Sequence record: NC_101837.1
Source of the DNA: a phage
Reading direction: 5' to 3' (one strand)
DNA: 64,000 bases
Shown here: positions 11,975 to 47,475 of the stretch, one piece after another
How the letters are laid out: the number at the start of each line of letters is the position of its first letter
Position numbering within the stretch: the stretch's first letter is position 1
Position numbers and translations under genes: made by a program
Notes under the pieces: model-generated
What the model was told of the DNA's origin: nothing
Database searches by the model: none
The model's input: only the letters and a program-made list of their open reading frames with translations

Positions 11975-12001
11975 ATAAAATAAAGGGGGCCGGAGCCCCC
12001 T
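11975..12001 (-). terminator. rho-independent terminator after tape measure gene
   Basis: Perfect GGGGGC-CGGA-GCCCCC hairpin followed on reverse strand by UUUUAUUUUAU. Confidence 0.6.
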
Positions 12002-12011
12002 GCACAGTTTA

Positions 12012-14348
12012 TTACCAAAGGTCGGTAGACATGAAGTTGATATCTTTATTGTTCTCCCACTCAAGTTTTGCATCAAATATTTTGTTAAACTCACCCTCAT
12101 CTATTGAAATCGTGATTTTCCCATCACTGATCTCTAAAGGTAGCATTTCCATAGTTCTTAATTGAGAGGCAAAACCAGGGCCACCTGGCAACGGAAGAGT
12201 CCCGCCCGGTAAGGTGTCCAAAGGATTAACAAATCCGTTACCTCCCGATATGATATCTTTGCGAATCATATCGCTGATAGTATCCAGCTGCTGATTTCTT
12301 TCACTTAGTGGGTTGTAACGGTCATTAAATAATTCCCCGGCGCTTAGTATTGTACCGATAATGCCCAGCTTACCGAGCAGACCAACTTTGCCACCAGGTG
12401 TCTTGAGGCCACCCCCACCTTTTCCTGCCGGAGCTCCACCACCAGATCCTTCTGTAGTAGCGGCACCTGCTACTCCAGCTGCACCCCTTAGAGAGCTAAG
12501 GAATTTAAAGGTTTTTACAAGCATAGATGCCATGACAAAACCTTTTGTTAGGGCGTTGACGACCAGCATGATGGCAGCAGCAAACCCTGCCCATTTAGCA
12601 TAGCTAAAGGTGTCATGAAGCTCTTCAGAATATTCCTTCGTCTTAGCTGTTATGAACCCCCATTTAATCCCCCATTCAAGGAAAAACATGCGGATCTTGA
12701 CTATAGTGTTGTTCAGTTCACCAACTACCCAGTTAAGGCCTCTCACAAACCCGCTAACAAAATCACCAGAGGCATCCCACACAAATTGCAGAGTCTCACC
12801 AGTGCGGATTAGTGTATAATAGAACTCTGTTAGTTCGTCAGACCAACGGGTGAACAGTTTCTGACGAGTCAGTTCGATAAAGGTTTTCAGTCTGTTTTCT
12901 GCCAGCACGTTAGACTTCTGCATTCTTTCATAACCAGCTGCAGATGCCTCGTTCATGTACTTAGCCACATACTTCATGATCTTGGCTGTTTTAACCTCAC
13001 CTTTCTTCATCATGTCCATGAACTGATCCATGGAGAGTTCAGAAAGACCAAAAGCCTCTTTGGTGGCCTTAATAAAAGGTTCGTATGCACCAGGCAATGC
13101 TTCAGCAAGTTGTTGCTTCAGTTCTTCGGACATTACCTGTCCTTTCCCGAGCATCTGTTGGATTGCCATAATACCGCGCTGGTATTTTACCTCATCGGCA
13201 CCATAAGCAGCAGCATACTGGGAGTATGCAGAAAACAGCTCATGCACTTCCTGATTTGTCATCTGGTTTTTGGCGTTTACCGACATCTGGGCGTAACCTT
13301 GAAGACCAGATTTGAGATCAAAACCAAGACGCATAGCCTCTTGCTGGACAAACGCAACCTCACTGTTGGCTTTGTTTGGATCTCCAGTGACAGCAGTAAG
13401 AGCAGCACTTGCCCCCTCCATCATGTGACCGGATCTGTTAACCGCAGCAAATCCAGAAAAAGCTGTATACGCAGCTGTTGCATTAATAACAGATCTACGT
13501 AAGTCTCTCATGGCATCGCCTAGTGTAAGCGTTTGGCTGGTGGCGCTTTTAAACCCAGACTGCAGCGCTGACAGGTGGGCGTTAAAGGTTGACTTCTTCA
13601 TCTCCCCGCGAGCAAACCTGGACTCTAACTCTGAGTATCCTGGCAAGCTTCCACGGAATCCGGCCCCATACTTGGCAGAAAGTCTTATCGCGGAGTTGTA
13701 GAGGTGGGTTCTCCTTGCCTCACGATCCGACATAAGCCTATTATCCATACCAGCTTTACTGTCTCTTCTTAGCTGTCTATGATAACGATTCATAGCGGCT
13801 GTCTGAGCTTTCACAAGGTTAGGGTCGGAAGCCACACCACCCATATTAGGGTTACCTGGGATATATTTGAAAGATTTGGCATTAGCCAAAACTCTTGCCT
13901 TAGGTGCCTTATAACCGCCGTAAGACACTGGTGCAGATTTGGCAGCCTTTTTGGCCTCTTTAGCTTGCTGCTGGTAGAACTTACGCATCCTAGCCATTTC
14001 TGGATTTTTAGCGGTAAGATTACCTACAGCTTGTTTACGTCTCGCATTCTCCCTACGTTCTATTGCAGCCCTTACTGCAGCCTCTTTCTTGGCCTGTGCT
14101 ACGCTCTCTCTGTGCAGTTTAGCATTTGCCTGAGATTGCTGTCTGGCAACCCGCTGCATTGTCTGCTGGGTTTTAACAGCTACCGCCTGCCATCTACTCA
14201 TGGGGTTGGCTGAGTTAAAATCCTCGCCCAGTTTCCTGAACTCCCTCCCAATACTGCGAATTTTCTCTACAGCTTTTTTGTAGGAGGAGTTCTCTATCTC
14301 AAAGCCAATCTTGTTGACTGTTGTGGCAACTATTTTGTTTGTAGCCAT
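12012..14348 (-). CDS. tail tape measure protein
   Basis: 778 aa, long predicted coiled-coil N-terminal half, Gly-rich segment (GAAGVAGAATTEGSGGGAPAGKGGGG), positioned after chaperone pair. Confidence 0.7.
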   Translation of the reverse strand: MATNKIVATTVNKIGFEIENSSYKKAVEKIRSIGREFRKLGEDFNSANPMSRWQAVAVKTQQTMQRVARQQSQANAKLHRESVAQAKKEAAVRAAIERRENARRKQAVGNLTAKNPEMARMRKFYQQQAKEAKKAAKSAPVSYGGYKAPKARVLANAKSFKYIPGNPNMGGVASDPNLVKAQTAAMNRYHRQLRRDSKAGMDNRLMSDREARRTHLYNSAIRLSAKYGAGFRGSLPGYSELESRFARGEMKKSTFNAHLSALQSGFKSATSQTLTLGDAMRDLRRSVINATAAYTAFSGFAAVNRSGHMMEGASAALTAVTGDPNKANSEVAFVQQEAMRLGFDLKSGLQGYAQMSVNAKNQMTNQEVHELFSAYSQYAAAYGADEVKYQRGIMAIQQMLGKGQVMSEELKQQLAEALPGAYEPFIKATKEAFGLSELSMDQFMDMMKKGEVKTAKIMKYVAKYMNEASAAGYERMQKSNVLAENRLKTFIELTRQKLFTRWSDELTEFYYTLIRTGETLQFVWDASGDFVSGFVRGLNWVVGELNNTIVKIRMFFLEWGIKWGFITAKTKEYSEELHDTFSYAKWAGFAAAIMLVVNALTKGFVMASMLVKTFKFLSSLRGAAGVAGAATTEGSGGGAPAGKGGGGLKTPGGKVGLLGKLGIIGTILSAGELFNDRYNPLSERNQQLDTISDMIRKDIISGGNGFVNPLDTLPGGTLPLPGGPGFASQLRTMEMLPLEISDGKITISIDEGEFNKIFDAKLEWENNKDINFMSTDLW

Positions 14349-14402
14349 GGTTTCCTCATAATAAAAAGGGCCAGATCCCAGAAAAGGAATCCGGCCCTTA
14401 GA

Positions 14403-14651
14403 TTATCCTCTCCTGCGCTTAGCTTTCGCAGCAGCTGCGGCAGCCTTCTGCTCCCGCTCCATTTCCCTGTTTTGGACGGTATCTAGGAATTCTTCGATAT
14501 CAAGATACTCACAGAGCTTCAGGAAATACGCCATATCTGCAAGATTTAGCGATTCAAAATTTTCCCCTTTGAAATTCTTGAGCACCCTACACCAAAGAAA
14601 GTCGAACCAGTTGAGTGAACTGTTCTTGGCTGCCCACTCACTGGCCCTCAC
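14403..14651 (-). CDS. tail assembly chaperone, downstream (-1 frame) segment
   Basis: Lies in -1 frame relative to 14663..15136 and that frame is open across the junction; position between tube gene and tape measure gene matches G/GT paradigm. Confidence 0.45.
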   Translation of the reverse strand: MRASEWAAKNSSLNWFDFLWCRVLKNFKGENFESLNLADMAYFLKLCEYLDIEEFLDTVQNREMEREQKAAAAAAKAKRRRG

Positions 14652-14662
14652 AACAACCTTGC

Positions 14663-15136
14663 TTATTCCTGCTCTTCCGGAGTCTGATCCAGGTTGTTCA
14701 CCTGCTGAATCATACCCATCTGCTGTAACATCTCCAGAAGGCTTCCTAAACCGTCTTGTGTGAAAAAACAGCCGTAGTTAACCTCCAGAACCTTACCTGC
14801 CAGCTTAATCATCTCCAGCAGATGCCCTGCAAACACAACATCTGGGTTAAGCTTATCCACACCATCTACGGTAATATCTTCGAACAAGATTTTAAATAAC
14901 TCTTCAATAGAGCTATCATCAAGTTCTTGGAACAGGTAAGCCAGAGCAGTAGGAAGGACCTCTGCCATATTCTGACCACCAGAGATAATAGATCCACCGA
15001 TAGCACCTAGCGGGACAGCCACAATCTTACCGATTTTAGGCATGTTTTTCATTGCTTTCATCGGTCCCCAGTGGGTGATCACAAAGTTGTGCCCTGCTAA
15101 ATCAATCTCTGTTGTAGGTCTAAAGTTTATAGCCAT
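14663..15136 (-). CDS. tail assembly chaperone (G-like)
   Basis: 157 aa, acidic C-terminus, immediately upstream of tape measure gene. Confidence 0.5.
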   Translation of the reverse strand: MAINFRPTTEIDLAGHNFVITHWGPMKAMKNMPKIGKIVAVPLGAIGGSIISGGQNMAEVLPTALAYLFQELDDSSIEELFKILFEDITVDGVDKLNPDVVFAGHLLEMIKLAGKVLEVNYGCFFTQDGLGSLLEMLQQMGMIQQVNNLDQTPEEQE

Positions 15137-15249
15137 TTTATAGCATCCTTATTAGTCATGTTGTGCACCATATTTGTGTATTTTACCATGATTATGGTGC
15201 ATTGTCAATTTAACCTTTCAAGCAATTCAAGAACGTGTGTCAAAACCAT

Positions 15250-15281
15250 AAAAGCAAAAAGCCTCACCCGAAGGTGAGGCT
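15250..15281 (-). terminator. rho-independent terminator after tail tube gene
   Basis: AGCCUCACC-CGAA-GGUGAGGCU hairpin followed on reverse strand by UUUUUGCUUUUAU. Confidence 0.6.
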
Positions 15282-15298
15282 TATGCTAAAGTGTGCCC

Positions 15299-15772
15299 TT
15301 AGATAATACCTGCAAGACCTGCGAGGCCAGTAAGAGCACCAGTGATGTTATCACGGTTGAGCCATGCATCCAGAATACCGATATCCCAGTCCAGCTGACC
15401 TACTTCGGTTCCGTAAGTCAGGTCAGGCTGTTTCTGGATCCAACCAATTGTGGAAATACCAGGACCCTGGCTACCTTCCAGCAGAACTGGGAAGAATACC
15501 AGACCAGTAATCGATGCCTGTTTCTGCCAGTCAGAAAGGTAAGCGTTCCATACAGAAGTGTTCTGCAAAGATACAGTCATAACACCAGATTGGTTACGAG
15601 ACAGGGCCGCAGACATTTCGCCATCCACACCAACGTGAGGGTAGATGTTGTCTTCGTTTCTTGAAACAACGATCTTGGTGTCAGCAGCGAAGCCAGTGAC
15701 ACGCTGCTGCATCAGGTACAGTTTGACCTTTTTAGGGTCATACGCATAAGGAGTTAAAATTTGAGTTTCCAT
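15299..15772 (-). CDS. tail tube protein
   Basis: 157 aa directly downstream of sheath-sized gene; order sheath-tube-chaperone-tape measure. Confidence 0.5.
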   Translation of the reverse strand: METQILTPYAYDPKKVKLYLMQQRVTGFAADTKIVVSRNEDNIYPHVGVDGEMSAALSRNQSGVMTVSLQNTSVWNAYLSDWQKQASITGLVFFPVLLEGSQGPGISTIGWIQKQPDLTYGTEVGQLDWDIGILDAWLNRDNITGALTGLAGLAGII

Positions 15773-15782
15773 CTAGTCTTCC

Positions 15783-17159
15783 TTATTCAGTCATTGCAAC
15801 AGCATTGGTGGATTTAGAACCAACTTTGTCCAGAAGGACGTTGATCCGGATACGAACGAAGTGCAGGGCGTTGTTATACACCAGTTCTACTTTCACACCT
15901 TCCAGAACACGAGCAGCCAACTGATTGGTTGGGATTTCTGCACGTTTAGGAACTGTGATGATCGGGTCGTAGAATACATTATTGTCTTCGTCAAAACCTG
16001 TCAGGATCGCACCATTCTTAATGCCAGTATTGATCGGGTTGTTCATCAGAACAGACTTGATAACCGGAAGATCATCATCAGACATCTTCATGCTTAAACC
16101 CATGTTGGAGCGACGATGCATGTACCCAAACATAGATTCTTCAGATCTGAACTTGATCCAGTGTGCAAAACGAATAGCGTCTGCATACTGACCTGAAGCA
16201 CACTTACCTTCCCAGAAAGCGCCAACACCGTTAATCATTCTGTAGAAGTTAACGTGGTTTTCCCAAATAGCCATACGCTGAGTTAAAGTCAGAGACGGTG
16301 CAATCACACCTGGCATCTGTTTTAAGTGCAAGCTGTCGCCGTAAGACGGATCGTTGGATGCCATAGCACCTATGATACCACCCTCCGGGAAGTCCTTATC
16401 TGCACGAGGATCGTACATGCCGACACTGTCATATTGTGCAGCTTTCAGTTTGGTGGCGATGTTATTATCTTTACCAGTCACATCTTCTGCAGTAGAGTAG
16501 ACATGCAGCTTGTAGTTAGCCTGAGCCCACTTAGCACATGCTTCAATGTCGGTGTGGTCTTCATGGCACAGGAAGTACCAATTGTCACGCTCAGCATTGA
16601 TCTTATCAACTACTGTAGAAGGTTTTTCAGCATTGGCGATATTTTTGATTGTATAGTTACCAGTATGGTAACCAACAGTACAGTCACCAGTGATGGTGAT
16701 AACACCATCAGCAGCCTCTACAGTGATATCGTCCAAGTTATCATCTGCTTCGATTTTAGTCTTCATTGACTCTGCAATCTGAGTTGCAGCTGTTCCACCA
16801 GAGATAGGGACTATCAAAGAGGTATTGTAGCTACCTTTTGCAATAGTCATTACGACATCGGTATCAGCTGCGGCAGCAATACCTTTAAAATCTACAGTGG
16901 TCTTTTCTTTGGCCTGTCTGCCGATCATAACGTATTGTGGAGGGAATACACCACCAAAAGCTTTTGCTGCAAACTCATACGCTGCAGAGCCTTGTGCGAA
17001 ACCATCTTCCACCATCTGATCCAGCTCTGCATATACGCGAGCTCGCTCAGTAAAGTTGTTGTGGATAGCGATGAACAGGGGAGTTTCGAAACCTACAGTG
17101 TCAATAGGCTGGGTTCCGAGGTTAACTGTAACATCTACCACTTTATCTAAATATGGCAT
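15783..17159 (-). CDS. tail sheath protein
   Basis: 458 aa, size and position typical of contractile-tail sheath; no motif confirmation. Confidence 0.5.
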   Translation of the reverse strand: MPYLDKVVDVTVNLGTQPIDTVGFETPLFIAIHNNFTERARVYAELDQMVEDGFAQGSAAYEFAAKAFGGVFPPQYVMIGRQAKEKTTVDFKGIAAAADTDVVMTIAKGSYNTSLIVPISGGTAATQIAESMKTKIEADDNLDDITVEAADGVITITGDCTVGYHTGNYTIKNIANAEKPSTVVDKINAERDNWYFLCHEDHTDIEACAKWAQANYKLHVYSTAEDVTGKDNNIATKLKAAQYDSVGMYDPRADKDFPEGGIIGAMASNDPSYGDSLHLKQMPGVIAPSLTLTQRMAIWENHVNFYRMINGVGAFWEGKCASGQYADAIRFAHWIKFRSEESMFGYMHRRSNMGLSMKMSDDDLPVIKSVLMNNPINTGIKNGAILTGFDEDNNVFYDPIITVPKRAEIPTNQLAARVLEGVKVELVYNNALHFVRIRINVLLDKVGSKSTNAVAMTE

Positions 17160-17231
17160 TTGTTTCCTCTTAATATCTGTGCACGGATATCAAACACGCA
17201 GTGTAATCATTACACTACACAATTATAACGA

Positions 17232-46291: not shown

Positions 46292-46492
46292 ATGGGCAGA
46301 TGTTCTAAAGGTGGCGATCCTGTAGTCAGATACGGAGACTGGCTAGAGGTATATAATCTGGAGGGAAAGCTAGTGTATGCTTCCAGGATCACCCAGGATA
46401 TGTGCTCTGATATGTTTAACAGGTACCTTGCATTTAAGGCCAACATAAACCCAGACGAAATTTCCAAAATTAAAACAAGGAGAGCTAAATAA
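46292..46492 (+). CDS. hypothetical protein
   Basis: 66-aa ORF. Confidence 0.35.
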   Translation: MGRCSKGGDPVVRYGDWLEVYNLEGKLVYASRITQDMCSDMFNRYLAFKANINPDEISKIKTRRAK

Positions 46493-47475
46493 TGCTAAAA
46501 CTGTGCACTGCAAAGATTATTGCTGACAGCATTTCCGAGAAAGGTAAGCGTATAACCACTTTTGAGCTAGAGTATCCTAGAATCATTCACTCTGAACTCA
46601 TGACACACCGAGTTTTCAGCAGAAACGCCATGTCCTCTCGTGCAGTACCTGTTAACAAAATGCTGCAGCAGGTTGTGGAAAATCCTGCAATGCCAGTTCG
46701 TTTTGGTGTAAACCAGCGAGGTATGGAGGATGGTGGCGATCACGATCAGAAGATCCGTGTAGAGTATACTGATCTTGAGTTCTCTCCTGAAGAGTTCTGG
46801 AAAGAAGCTGCCAAAAATGCAGCCTGGCATGCAGAGAAGTTCGCACTTGCTGGTTACCATAAGCAAGTATGTAACCGCTTAGTGGAGCCTTTTCAGCGCA
46901 TGAAAACAGTTGTAACAAGCACCGAGTGGAATAATTTTTTCCACCTCCGTTGCTGGCACGATGCGGATCCTACGATTCAGATGTTGGCTAATTGTATGTG
47001 GGAGGCTCTTGGGAATAGCACTCCTGAAATCCTTAAACCGGGTCAATGGCACACCCCATATGTAGAGCACGTTTATTTGGACGGAGAGTTTAACTACGCT
47101 GTGCGTGACACAGAAGGAAAGCTCTGCATTCTCGATACTAAAGAAGCTCTGTCTATCAGTGCTAGTTGCTGTGCACAAGTATCTTATCGAAATATTGACA
47201 GCACGTTTGAAAAGGCAGACAGCGTGGCTAAAAAATTGATTGGTGGGGATCGTATTCATGCAAGCCCTTACGAGCACCAGGCAACACCCATGGATCACGA
47301 TAACGCAATGGAACGTTTAAACTACTACCTGTCTTCATGTGAAATCACACAAGACATCAGTACTTGGCAGGAAGGTGTAACCCATCAAGACCGTGATGGT
47401 AAATTCTGGTCTGCCAACTTTTGTGGGTGGGTTCAGCACAGACAACTGCTTAATAACCACTTCGTGAAAGGTTAA
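46492..47475 (+). CDS. thyX: putative flavin-dependent thymidylate synthase (ThyX-like)
   Basis: ThyX-like motif THRVFSRNAMSSRA (RHR-x7-S pattern with T for first R); 327 aa is longer than typical ThyX. Confidence 0.5.
   Translation: MLKLCTAKIIADSISEKGKRITTFELEYPRIIHSELMTHRVFSRNAMSSRAVPVNKMLQQVVENPAMPVRFGVNQRGMEDGGDHDQKIRVEYTDLEFSPEEFWKEAAKNAAWHAEKFALAGYHKQVCNRLVEPFQRMKTVVTSTEWNNFFHLRCWHDADPTIQMLANCMWEALGNSTPEILKPGQWHTPYVEHVYLDGEFNYAVRDTEGKLCILDTKEALSISASCCAQVSYRNIDSTFEKADSVAKKLIGGDRIHASPYEHQATPMDHDNAMERLNYYLSSCEITQDISTWQEGVTHQDRDGKFWSANFCGWVQHRQLLNNHFVKG

What the first reader, a model, noticed from the sequence alone, without database searches (positions are those of the whole stretch)
14403..15136. 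Tail assembly chaperone pair arranged for a possible -1 programmed frameshift
The 82-codon ORF (14403..14651) lies in the -1 frame relative to the 157-codon ORF (14663..15136), and that -1 frame stays open for at least about 25 codons upstream of the first ORF's stop. Both sit directly upstream of the tape measure gene, which is the conserved G/GT frameshift position in tailed phages. I could not find a textbook XXXYYYZ slippery heptamer in the overlap, so the site would have to be non-canonical or further upstream.
Basis: partly seen in the sequence, partly recalled or inferred. Interest (0 to 1): 0.45.

Follow-up and report, generated by a model that had tools for sequence, protein, structure and literature searches.

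The report
Unannotated tail-chaperone frameshift in rV5-like phage

Summary
The window is Escherichia phage nomine (Vequintavirus, rV5-like). All genes here are on the minus strand, in the order sheath, tube, ORF1 (15136..14663, 157 aa, Pfam Phage_TAC_15), ORF2 (14651..14403, 82 aa), tape measure.

The geometry holds. ORF2 is in the -1 frame of ORF1, and that frame is open for 124 codons, 37 of them overlapping ORF1.

An in-frame T TTT TTC lies at 14768..14762 (ORF1 codons 123-125), three codons after the -1 frame opens.

The same heptamer at the same position occurs in all 44 related loci that keep the Phe-Phe pair (25 distinct nucleotide contexts, down to about 30% protein identity). It also marks the annotated frameshift of Citrobacter phage Moogle. 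Barba5A has lost it but carries G GGA AAG two codons downstream.

Three relatives have no start codon ahead of the conserved ORF2 motif.

The predicted products are TAC-N (157 aa) and a TAC-NC fusion (244 aa, 27.1 kDa). I found no conserved stimulatory RNA structure.

No sampled record or database protein carries the fusion for this subfamily.

Verdict: a new, unannotated member of the known lambda G/GT type. Interest is low.

The parts
14663..15136 (-). ORF1, the TAC-N gene (157 aa, 17.2 kDa, pI 4.5). This is the product of standard translation.
   Evidence: ORF listing. Pfam PF21822 Phage_TAC_15, E 3.3e-23; phrog_3840 'tail assembly chaperone', E 6.5e-69. The AF2 model matches viral tail assembly chaperones in BFVD.
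14762..14768 (-). Slippery heptamer T TTT TTC in X XXY YYZ phase of ORF1 (third base of Cys123, then Phe124, Phe125). This is the proposed -1 shift site.
   Evidence: Sequence and frame. Identical heptamer in 44 of 44 related loci that keep x-F-F, covering 25 distinct nucleotide contexts. Codon -2 varies (TGT, CCT, AGT) but always ends in T, while neighbouring codons vary synonymously. It is homologous to the site of the annotated Moogle frameshift.
14778..14780 (-). TAA stop in the -1 frame. It marks the upstream limit of the open -1 frame, three codons before the heptamer.
14782..14786 (-). Shine-Dalgarno-like GGAGG, 13 nt upstream of the heptamer. Possible dnaX-type upstream stimulator (inferred only).
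   Evidence: Sequence. GGAG, GAGG or GGAGG is present in most relatives but not all. It is confounded by the conserved L-E-V codons.
14666..14761 (-). Dual-coding overlap. In the 0 frame it encodes the 32-residue C-terminal tail of TAC-N. In the -1 frame it encodes the start of the TAC-NC extension: the HTRRFRKPSG motif followed by a Gly/Ser/Asp-rich linker.
   Evidence: The 0-frame Gly codon that overlaps the -1-frame Phe of 'RFR' is GGT in 16 of 16 contexts. In nomine, TTC to TTA changes the 0-frame F to L but keeps Arg (CGN to AGG) in the -1 frame.
14403..14762 (-). The -1 frame part of the predicted fusion TAC-NC: 119 codons plus stop. The whole fusion is ORF1 residues 1-125 plus these 119 residues, giving 244 aa and 27.1 kDa.
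   Evidence: The -1 frame is open from the heptamer to the ORF2 stop in every relative examined.
14403..14651 (-). ORF2 as annotated in GenBank (82 aa, GTG start, AAGG 5 nt upstream). It is the conserved C-terminal domain (TAC-C, phrog_10409, no assigned function).
   Evidence: The GTG start is not conserved. K54_rec2, pEa_SNUABM_55 and PBES02 have no ATG/GTG/TTG until after the conserved KNSSLxWxDYL motif. Gene callers give homologues of 43-102 aa.
14366..14399 (-). Intrinsic-terminator-like hairpin plus T-run between the chaperone unit and the tape measure gene.
   Evidence: Annotated as a terminator in phage Murica. A hairpin plus T-run is present at the same place in six other Vequintavirinae.
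15180..15208 (-). Near-consensus sigma-70-type promoter-like site (TTGACA, 17 nt spacer, TAAAAT, with TG upstream) ahead of ORF1.
   Evidence: 11 of 12 matches. Absent from the shorter intergenic region of PVP-SE1-like relatives. Function not shown.
15259..15282 (-). Terminator-like hairpin after the tube gene.
   Evidence: Annotated as a terminator in Murica.
12012..14348 (-). Tape measure protein gene (778 aa), the presumed client of the chaperones.
   Evidence: Pfam TMP_3 E 1.6e-18; phrog_5255 E 0.
15299..15772 (-). Tail tube gene (157 aa), the presumed partner of the TAC-C domain by analogy with lambda gpV.
   Evidence: Pfam KPP10_Orf10, phrog_280. Annotated as 'tail tube protein' in phage WalterGehring.

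Best explanation
ORF1 and ORF2 are one tail assembly chaperone locus of the lambda G/GT type.

Most ribosomes translate ORF1 to its stop and make TAC-N (157 aa). A minority, with tRNA-Phe in both the P and A sites on UUU UUC, slip back one base on U UUU UUC (14768..14762, minus strand), re-pair with UUU UUU, and continue in the -1 frame through the region annotated as intergenic and through ORF2. This gives TAC-NC (244 aa). TAC-NC shares residues 1-125 with TAC-N, then has a short conserved HxRRFRxPSG segment, a Gly/Ser-rich linker and the conserved helical TAC-C domain.

By analogy with lambda gpG/gpGT (Atkins et al. review, PMC5009743), the shared N domain coats the tape measure protein and the rare C domain recruits the tube protein. 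A fixed slippage rate therefore sets a fixed ratio of the two proteins.

What is shown here: the frame geometry, the heptamer, its nucleotide-level conservation, the lack of a conserved ORF2 start, and the homology of ORF1 to tail assembly chaperones.

What is inferred: that slippage happens at all, its efficiency, the binding partners, and any role for the upstream GGAGG.
For: 1. In-frame T TTT TTC lies three codons after the -1 frame opens.
2. The same heptamer, in the same phase and at the homologous N-[YF]-G-x-F-F position, occurs in:
   - 10 of 11 diverse GenBank relatives: Vequintavirinae such as PVP-SE1, W70, PBES02 and pEa_SNUABM_55; Stephanstirmvirinae such as phAPEC8, Eryne and FKP3; and Aeromonas phiA009;
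   - all 33 IMG/VR loci.
3. Among 25 distinct nucleotide contexts, codon -2 changes amino acid (Cys, Pro, Ser) yet always ends in T. Phe-Phe is TTT TTC in 25 of 25, while flanking codons vary synonymously (TAC/TAT 18:7, four Val codons). From this phage's codon usage, C-F-F would be TGT TTT TTC about 11% of the time, and only 2 of 24 x-F-F sites in the window's long ORFs are T TTT TTY.
4. Barba5A has lost FF at this position but has lambda's own heptamer G GGA AAG in frame two codons downstream.
5. The -1 frame is open from the heptamer to the ORF2 stop in every locus. The background is about one -1 stop per 10 codons, with a longest run of 58 codons elsewhere in the window.
6. K54_rec2, pEa_SNUABM_55 and PBES02 have no ATG/GTG/TTG in the -1 frame until after the conserved KNSSLxWxDYL motif. 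ORF2 homologues are called at 43-102 aa, or not called at all ('none' in several records).
7. There is -1-frame coding constraint directly after the heptamer: the RFR motif, and GGT in 16 of 16 contexts.
8. ORF1 is a tail assembly chaperone by Pfam, PHROG and fold. AF2 confidence collapses at residue 124, which places the shift site at the end of the folded N domain.
9. Citrobacter phage Moogle has a fold-related chaperone (BFVD E 5.5e-5) carrying an annotated joined CDS of 212 aa. That length equals a shift at its own T TTT TTC in the motif NFGSFF.
10. A -1 frameshift with a GTTTTT motif was proposed in 2025 for the related Vandenendeviridae and Andersonviridae (PMC12846349).
Against: - There is no direct evidence that the fusion protein exists.
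- No significant or conserved downstream RNA structure was found: z-scores -0.88 and +1.04, and a consensus fold of -1.73 kcal/mol with no covariation term. Efficiency may therefore be low. Lambda-type sites are not known to need such a structure (own knowledge).
- In nomine itself ORF2 has a plausible own start (GTG with AAGG 5 nt upstream), so frameshifting is not logically required in this genus.
- No fusion-length protein appears among 73 database homologues (all 149-159 aa) or in the 1.84-billion-protein representative library. There is therefore no in-frame natural fusion to corroborate the domain linkage.
- The IMG/VR loci were retrieved with a peptide pattern that required FF. They test codon choice, not the presence of FF.
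Confidence: 0.86

Rival explanations
1. Two independent genes. ORF2 is translated only from its own GTG at 14651 (AAGG Shine-Dalgarno 5 nt upstream) as a free 82-aa protein, and the open -1 frame and heptamer upstream are incidental.
For: A GTG start with an AAGG motif is present in nomine. Every GenBank record sampled annotates two separate CDSs, and Murica even annotates a ribosome binding site. No fusion-length protein is in the databases.
Against: The start is not conserved. Three relatives have no possible start before the conserved N-terminal motif of the domain, and annotated starts scatter widely. The residues ISKVV upstream of the GTG are conserved as protein in PVP-SE1-like phages. 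Nucleotide-level conservation of the heptamer and the uninterrupted -1 frame in all loci are left unexplained. This model may still coexist with frameshifting within the genus Vequintavirus.
Confidence: 0.07
2. Transcriptional slippage. RNA polymerase adds one extra U while copying the T6 run, producing a minority of mRNAs in which ORF1 and ORF2 are in frame. The protein product is the same as for ribosomal slippage.
For: The conserved element is a homopolymeric run of six T. The 2025 description of related families stresses a 'GTTTTT' motif rather than a phased heptamer. The protein outcome is indistinguishable by sequence analysis.
Against: Six residues is shorter than the runs of about eight to nine or more that give productive slippage by bacterial RNA polymerase (own knowledge; the review is PMC5009743). 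Barba5A replaces the run with G GGA AAG, which is not a homopolymer but is a classic ribosomal tandem-slippage site. The base after the run is C in all 25 contexts, and the run always sits in X XXY YYZ phase.
Confidence: 0.05
3. Chance arrangement or degenerate remnant. ORF2 is a decaying or non-functional reading frame and nothing is recoded.
For: ORF2 has no Pfam or NCBIfam match and only unnamed PHROG families.
Against: The ORF2 domain is conserved as protein across at least three phage subfamilies. The 124-codon open -1 frame is far beyond the window's background.
Confidence: 0.01

Closest known systems
Phage lambda gpG / gpGT tail assembly chaperones (-1 frameshift at G GGA AAG; Levin 1993; Xu, Hendrix & Duda 2004, 2013, 2014, as summarised in PMC5009743)
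   Same: Two overlapping ORFs directly upstream of the tape measure gene. The second ORF is in the -1 frame. [quoted passage not shown] The predicted products are a short abundant protein and a long rare protein that share an N-terminal domain. One relative (Barba5A) uses lambda's exact heptamer.
   Different: The heptamer is T TTT TTC. The phage is a contractile-tailed, roughly 138 kb virulent myovirus. There is no detectable sequence similarity to gpG or gpT. The overlap is longer (37 codons) and includes a Gly/Ser-rich linker. Neither the fusion protein nor its ratio to the short form has been measured.
Citrobacter phage Moogle (Ounavirinae, Felix O1-like) 'tape measure chaperone' with annotated translational frameshift (KM236239; PMC4319497)
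   Same: The same heptamer T TTT TTC at the same protein motif (NFGSFF versus NYGCFF), at the end of a fold-related N domain. The annotated 212-aa joined CDS equals a shift at that heptamer. The gene order is the same: tube, chaperone, tape measure.
   Different: Sequence identity is about 21% and detectable only by fold. Homology of the C-terminal domains was not demonstrated (hhalign probability 5.6%). Moogle's overlap is shorter (28 codons) and its fusion is shorter.
Conserved -1 frameshift with a GTTTTT motif in tail chaperone loci of Vandenendeviridae (Pakpunavirus) and Andersonviridae (PMC12846349, December 2025)
   Same: The downstream ORF is routinely mis-annotated as a hypothetical protein. 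The -1 frame is uninterrupted in all genomes. A conserved poly-T motif lies at the 3' end of TAC-N. The authors state that these clades are related to Vequintavirinae. The nomine site reads G TTT TTT C.
   Different: The passages I read describe alignments of Vandenendeviridae and Andersonviridae only, not Vequintavirinae or Stephanstirmvirinae. In Stephanstirmvirinae the base before the run is C, not G (CCT TTT TTC).
Bacillus phage SPP1 gp17.5 / gp17.5* (putative -1 frameshift at UUUUUUC; PMC6316719)
   Same: An identical slippery heptamer in a tail chaperone gene upstream of the tape measure gene.
   Different: SPP1 is a siphovirus of a Gram-positive host. No homology was tested here. That case also rests on bioinformatics.

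Membership tests
G/GT-type tail assembly chaperone pair with -1 programmed ribosomal frameshift | Located between the major tail (tube) gene and the tape measure gene, on the same strand | tested here: met
   Minus-strand order: sheath 17159..15783, tube 15772..15299, ORF1, ORF2, tape measure 14348..12012.
G/GT-type tail assembly chaperone pair with -1 programmed ribosomal frameshift | The upstream ORF belongs to a tail assembly chaperone family | tested here: met
   PF21822 Phage_TAC_15, E 3.3e-23 (83 bits against a cut-off of 22); phrog_3840, E 6.5e-69. The AF2 model matches viral chaperones in BFVD. There is no solved-structure relative by sequence, and only a weak PDB fold match (5ir0, E 0.27).
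G/GT-type tail assembly chaperone pair with -1 programmed ribosomal frameshift | The downstream ORF is in the -1 frame, and that frame is open across the 3' end of the upstream ORF | tested here: met
   124 codons open, 37 of them overlapping ORF1. The same holds in all 45 related loci.
G/GT-type tail assembly chaperone pair with -1 programmed ribosomal frameshift | Slippery heptamer X XXY YYZ in the 0 frame inside the overlap | tested here: met
   T TTT TTC at 14768..14762.
G/GT-type tail assembly chaperone pair with -1 programmed ribosomal frameshift | Heptamer and frame arrangement conserved beyond what the amino-acid sequence requires | tested here: met
   25 of 25 distinct contexts read NNT TTT TTC despite Cys/Pro/Ser changes and synonymous variation nearby. 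Barba5A carries a compensating G GGA AAG. The codon-usage expectation is about 0.11 per lineage.
G/GT-type tail assembly chaperone pair with -1 programmed ribosomal frameshift | The downstream ORF lacks a conserved initiation site of its own | tested here: inconclusive
   Nomine has GTG plus AAGG. Three relatives have no possible start before the conserved motif, and annotated starts scatter widely.
G/GT-type tail assembly chaperone pair with -1 programmed ribosomal frameshift | The fusion protein is made at a low fixed ratio and is required for tail assembly | not testable with these tools
   This needs a western blot, mass spectrometry, a reporter assay and genetics. The rV5 genomics and proteomics paper does not contain the words 'chaperone' or 'tape measure' or the gene names I searched.
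dnaX-type stimulated -1 frameshift (upstream Shine-Dalgarno-like element plus downstream hairpin) | Shine-Dalgarno-like sequence about 10-14 nt 5' of the heptamer | tested here: inconclusive
   GGAGG at 14786..14782, 13 nt upstream. It is only partly conserved and coincides with the conserved L-E-V codons.
dnaX-type stimulated -1 frameshift (upstream Shine-Dalgarno-like element plus downstream hairpin) | Stable, conserved hairpin or pseudoknot 5-9 nt 3' of the heptamer | tested here: not met
   z-scores -0.88 and +1.04 against shuffles. RNAalifold consensus -1.73 kcal/mol with covariation term 0. No Rfam family reached threshold.
Programmed transcriptional slippage | Homopolymeric run long enough for RNA polymerase realignment (about 8-9 or more A/T in bacteria; own knowledge) | tested here: not met
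   The run is 6 T. Barba5A has no homopolymer at all.

The most novel reading that the evidence does not exclude
In the genus Vequintavirus proper, ORF2 has gained its own GTG start and AAGG ribosome binding site just after the ORF1 stop. The C-terminal domain could then be made both as a free 9.7 kDa protein and as the frameshift fusion. That would make this lineage an intermediate between frameshift-dependent expression and separate-gene expression of tail chaperone domains. I know of a non-frameshift route proposed for T4-like phages only from the title of Vladimirov et al. 2022, cited in PMC12846349; I could not read that paper.

A second, weaker possibility: the invariant CGGUUUCG 6-9 nt after the heptamer acts at the RNA level rather than only as dual coding.
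Probability: 0.12. Interest if true: 0.4.

Novelty: new member of a known kind. Interest (0 to 1): 0.2.

Why it matters
The main value is for annotation.
- More than 100 Vequintavirus genomes, and several hundred genomes of related Vequintavirinae and Stephanstirmvirinae, include many phage-therapy and biocontrol candidates. In every record I sampled the region carries two 'hypothetical' or separate genes, or no gene at all, instead of a short and a long chaperone isoform joined by ribosomal slippage.
- The exact site and product can now be stated: 14768..14762, and a 244-aa fusion.
- The same T TTT TTC at the same N-[YF]-G-x-F-F motif links rV5-like, phi92/phAPEC8-like, Aeromonas, Felix O1-like (Moogle) and probably Pakpunavirus chaperones. 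That supports a single ancient origin of this recoding site in one large myovirus lineage.
- It adds nothing new mechanistically to what lambda G/GT already teaches.

Tried and rejected
- **Downstream stimulatory structure.** Single-sequence folds of 107 nt and 60 nt after the heptamer were no better than shuffles. The consensus fold of seven Vequintavirinae showed no covariation. Rejected as a supported feature.
- **Rfam scan of 14300..15350.** Only a chance-level GcvB match, E 0.53 and far below the gathering score.
- **Already annotated or published for this subfamily?**
  - About 75 sampled GenBank records show no joined CDS.
  - The rV5 paper does not contain the words 'chaperone' or 'tape measure' or the gene names I searched.
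  - Literature searches on Vequintavirinae or Stephanstirmvirinae plus 'frameshift' gave nothing specific.
  - Searches for 'TTTTTTC' plus 'tail assembly chaperone', and for the E. coli heptamer-efficiency paper, found nothing in the held library.
- **Natural in-frame fusion ('Rosetta stone').** A fusion query against 5.8 billion proteins returned only 149-159 aa ORF1-like proteins. The -1 frame peptide against 1.84 billion representatives returned only short ORFs, plus a few long repetitive proteins that look spurious.
- **Homology of the C-terminal domain to Moogle's.** hhalign probability 5.6%, not demonstrated. There were no Pfam or NCBIfam hits for the C domain.
- **Structure prediction of the fusion.** Only ORF1 was modelled.
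- **Solved structures.** There is no sequence relative. The best fold match is an uncharacterised Vibrio PLE ORF19, which is not significant.
- **Vladimirov et al. 2022** (the T4-like alternative mechanism) is not held in the library.
Full report
**What the window is**

The region 12000..17200 is 100% identical to Escherichia phage nomine (MN850649; Vequintavirus, rV5-like) and 95-99% identical to about 115 other records.

All genes discussed here are on the minus strand. In transcription order they are:
- sheath, 17159..15783 (phrog_205)
- tube, 15772..15299 (Pfam KPP10_Orf10)
- ORF1, 15136..14663 (157 aa)
- ORF2, 14651..14403 (82 aa)
- tape measure protein, 14348..12012 (Pfam TMP_3, phrog_5255)

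ORF1 is a tail assembly chaperone: PF21822 Phage_TAC_15 at E 3.3e-23, and phrog_3840 at E 6.5e-69. ORF2 matches only PHROGs with no assigned function (phrog_10409) and no Pfam or NCBIfam family.

**Checking the observation**

The coordinates, lengths and frame relation are correct.
- ORF2 is in the -1 frame of ORF1.
- That frame is open from 14777, just after a TAA at 14780..14778, to the ORF2 stop. This is 124 codons, of which 37 overlap ORF1 and 42 lie upstream of the GTG that opens ORF2.
- In 51 long ORFs of the window, the -1 frame carries a stop about every 10 codons. P(37 codons open) is about 0.02, and the longest -1 open run elsewhere is 58 codons.

The ORF1 codons TGT TTT TTC (Cys123, Phe124, Phe125) form T TTT TTC at 14768..14762. 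This is a canonical X XXY YYZ heptamer in the correct phase, three codons after the -1 frame opens. A single heptamer is not rare: they occur about once per 313 codons, so the chance of one in 37 codons is about 0.11. The case therefore rests on comparison with relatives.

**Comparative evidence**

tblastn with ORF1 found 490 phage records. I fetched 12 diverse loci and analysed 11 of them; POP18 was fetched but not analysed. I also obtained 33 IMG/VR loci.

*The heptamer is conserved.* T TTT TTC is present in phase, at the homologous N-[YF]-G-x-F-F position, in:
- PVP-SE1, K54_rec2, pEa_SNUABM_55, 18-1-2, W70 and PBES02 (Vequintavirinae)
- phAPEC8, Eryne and FKP3 (Stephanstirmvirinae)
- Aeromonas phiA009
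- all 33 IMG/VR loci

ORF1 identity in this set falls to about 30%.

*The conservation is at the nucleotide level.* Across 25 distinct nucleotide contexts:
- The codon before Phe-Phe changes amino acid (TGT Cys, CCT Pro, AGT Ser) yet always ends in T.
- Phe-Phe is TTT TTC in 25 of 25.
- Adjacent codons vary synonymously.

From this phage's own codon usage, C-F-F would be TGT TTT TTC about 11% of the time, and only 2 of 24 x-F-F sites in the window's long ORFs are T TTT TTY.

One caveat applies. The IMG/VR loci were retrieved with a peptide pattern that required FF, so they test codon choice only. The GenBank loci have no such bias.

*One relative has a replacement site.* Rheinheimera phage Barba5A has lost FF at this position (YGCLTSGKSF) but carries G GGA AAG, lambda's own G/GT heptamer, in phase two codons downstream.

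*The -1 frame stays open.* In every locus it is uninterrupted from the heptamer to the end of the ORF2 homologue.

**ORF2 has no conserved start of its own**

- In K54_rec2, pEa_SNUABM_55 and PBES02 there is no ATG, GTG or TTG in the -1 frame until after the conserved KNSSLxWxDYL motif.
- Annotated ORF2 starts scatter widely, leaving apparent 'intergenic' gaps.
- Several records annotate nothing there.
- In a 1.84-billion-protein library the homologues are called at 43, 44, 51, 59-61, 74, 81, 84 and 102 aa.
- Nomine does have GTG with AAGG 5 nt upstream. However, the residues ISKVV encoded just upstream of that GTG are conserved as protein in PVP-SE1-like phages.

**The -1 frame is under coding constraint directly after the heptamer**

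- The motif H/R/Q-x-(R)-R-F-R is conserved.
- The 0-frame Gly codon that overlaps the -1-frame Phe is GGT in 16 of 16 contexts.
- In nomine, a TTC to TTA change alters the 0-frame residue (F to L) while CGN to AGG keeps Arg in the -1 frame.

**Predicted products**

- TAC-N: 157 aa, 17.2 kDa.
- TAC-NC: 244 aa, 27.1 kDa, made of ORF1 residues 1-125 plus 119 residues from the -1 frame.

An AF2 model of ORF1 (mean pLDDT 66) is confident for the core, and confidence drops below 50 from residue 124 to the end. The shift site therefore sits at the C-terminal boundary of the folded N domain. The model matches viral tail assembly chaperones in BFVD, including the 'tape measure chaperone' of Citrobacter phage Moogle (E 5.5e-5).

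**Stimulators**

I found no significant downstream structure.
- z-scores were -0.88 and +1.04.
- The alignment consensus fold was -1.73 kcal/mol with no covariation.
- Nothing in Rfam reached threshold.

A GGAGG lies 13 nt upstream of the heptamer, at 14786..14782, which resembles the dnaX upstream stimulator (own knowledge). It is only partly conserved and coincides with the conserved L-E-V codons, so it remains an inference.

**Mechanism**

Ribosomal tandem slippage of two tRNA-Phe from UUU UUC to UUU UUU is the simplest reading.

Transcriptional slippage on the T6 run would give the same protein. It is disfavoured for three reasons: the run is short; Barba5A's substitute site is not a homopolymer; and the base after the run is always C, with the run always in phase.

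Exclusive independent initiation of ORF2 is disfavoured by the comparative data, although it may coexist with frameshifting in Vequintavirus.

The functional model is taken by analogy from lambda (PMC5009743): the N domain coats the tape measure protein, and the C domain of the rare fusion recruits the tube protein. It is not tested here.

**Comparison with what is known**

- *Lambda G/GT.* This locus belongs to the same class, and all sequence-testable defining features are met.
- *Moogle.* This is the closest annotated example. It has a joined CDS of 212 aa, which equals a shift at its own T TTT TTC in NFGSFF.
- *Vandenendeviridae and Andersonviridae.* A December 2025 paper argues for the same -1 frameshift with a GTTTTT motif in these families, which it relates to Vequintavirinae. 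It notes the same habitual mis-annotation (PMC12846349).
- *SPP1.* gp17.5/17.5* is proposed to use UUUUUUC (PMC6316719).
- *Vequintavirinae and Stephanstirmvirinae themselves.* I found no annotation in about 75 sampled records. I found no fusion-length protein among 73 database homologues and no paper describing it.

**Verdict**

The 'missing' slippery site is a canonical one that was overlooked. This is an unannotated but ordinary member of a well-known recoding class, useful for correcting annotation and of low novelty. My confidence that a -1 ribosomal frameshift at 14768..14762 produces a 244-aa TAC-NC is about 0.86. Direct protein evidence is still lacking.

Noticed in passing
window 15282..15259, 15208..15180 and 14399..14366 (all minus strand): The chaperone pair is bracketed by two terminator-like hairpins. 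In nomine it is also preceded by a near-consensus sigma-70 promoter-like site (TTGACA, 17 nt spacer, TAAAAT with TG; 11 of 12 matches), so it may form its own small transcription unit inside the tail gene cluster. The hairpin plus T-run between the chaperone and the tape measure gene recurs in six other Vequintavirinae. The promoter-like insert is absent from PVP-SE1-like phages.
   Followed up: partly
GenBank records MG0656xx (e.g. MG065655, MG065652, MG065635), found: About 20 records named 'Campylobacter phage' with host Campylobacter jejuni are 98-100% identical to E. coli rV5-like phages across this locus, and most are unannotated. The host label looks doubtful (contamination or mis-assignment).
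   Followed up: no
window 46935..46941 (+ strand), inside ORF 46492..47475: This is the only other in-frame T TTT TTC in the window's long ORFs. The gene looks ThyX-like by my reading of the translation; I ran no domain search on it. The -1 frame closes after 16 codons, so the site is probably incidental.
   Followed up: partly
window 14666..14761 (minus strand) and homologous positions in L004-L014: The octamer CGGTTTCG (CGGTTTAG in nomine) lies 6-9 nt after the heptamer and is nearly invariant across subfamilies. It encodes G-F-G/A in the 0 frame and R-F-R in the -1 frame. The spacing differs by 3 nt in Stephanstirmvirinae, which favours protein-level dual-coding constraint, but an RNA-level role was not excluded.
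   Followed up: partly
ORF1 model, residues 124-157 (window 14767..14666, minus strand): AF2 confidence falls below 50 exactly from the frameshift residue onward. The 0-frame tail of TAC-N is predicted to be disordered yet is moderately conserved (…VNxLDQ…).
   Followed up: no
PDB 5ir0 (Vibrio cholerae PICI-like element ORF19): This is the best solved-structure fold match of the chaperone N domain, and the protein is of unknown function (Foldseek E 0.27, probability 0.94, target TM-score 0.62). The match is not significant, but it hints that this satellite protein could be chaperone-like.
   Followed up: no
PQ520352.1 'Enterococcus phage IME_EF3', a 2,019-bp record: A short record labelled as an Enterococcus phage encodes an ORF2-like domain (40% identity) typical of enterobacterial Vequintavirinae. 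It is possibly a mislabelled fragment.
   Followed up: no
(protein database search with the fusion): The word-indexed search returned 73 ORF1-like proteins but no ORF2-like protein, although near-identical ORF2 sequences exist in GenBank. About 40 proteins at 71-75% identity come from roughly 140 kb contigs and appear to be a Vequintavirus-related group not represented among the GenBank relatives I examined.
   Followed up: no
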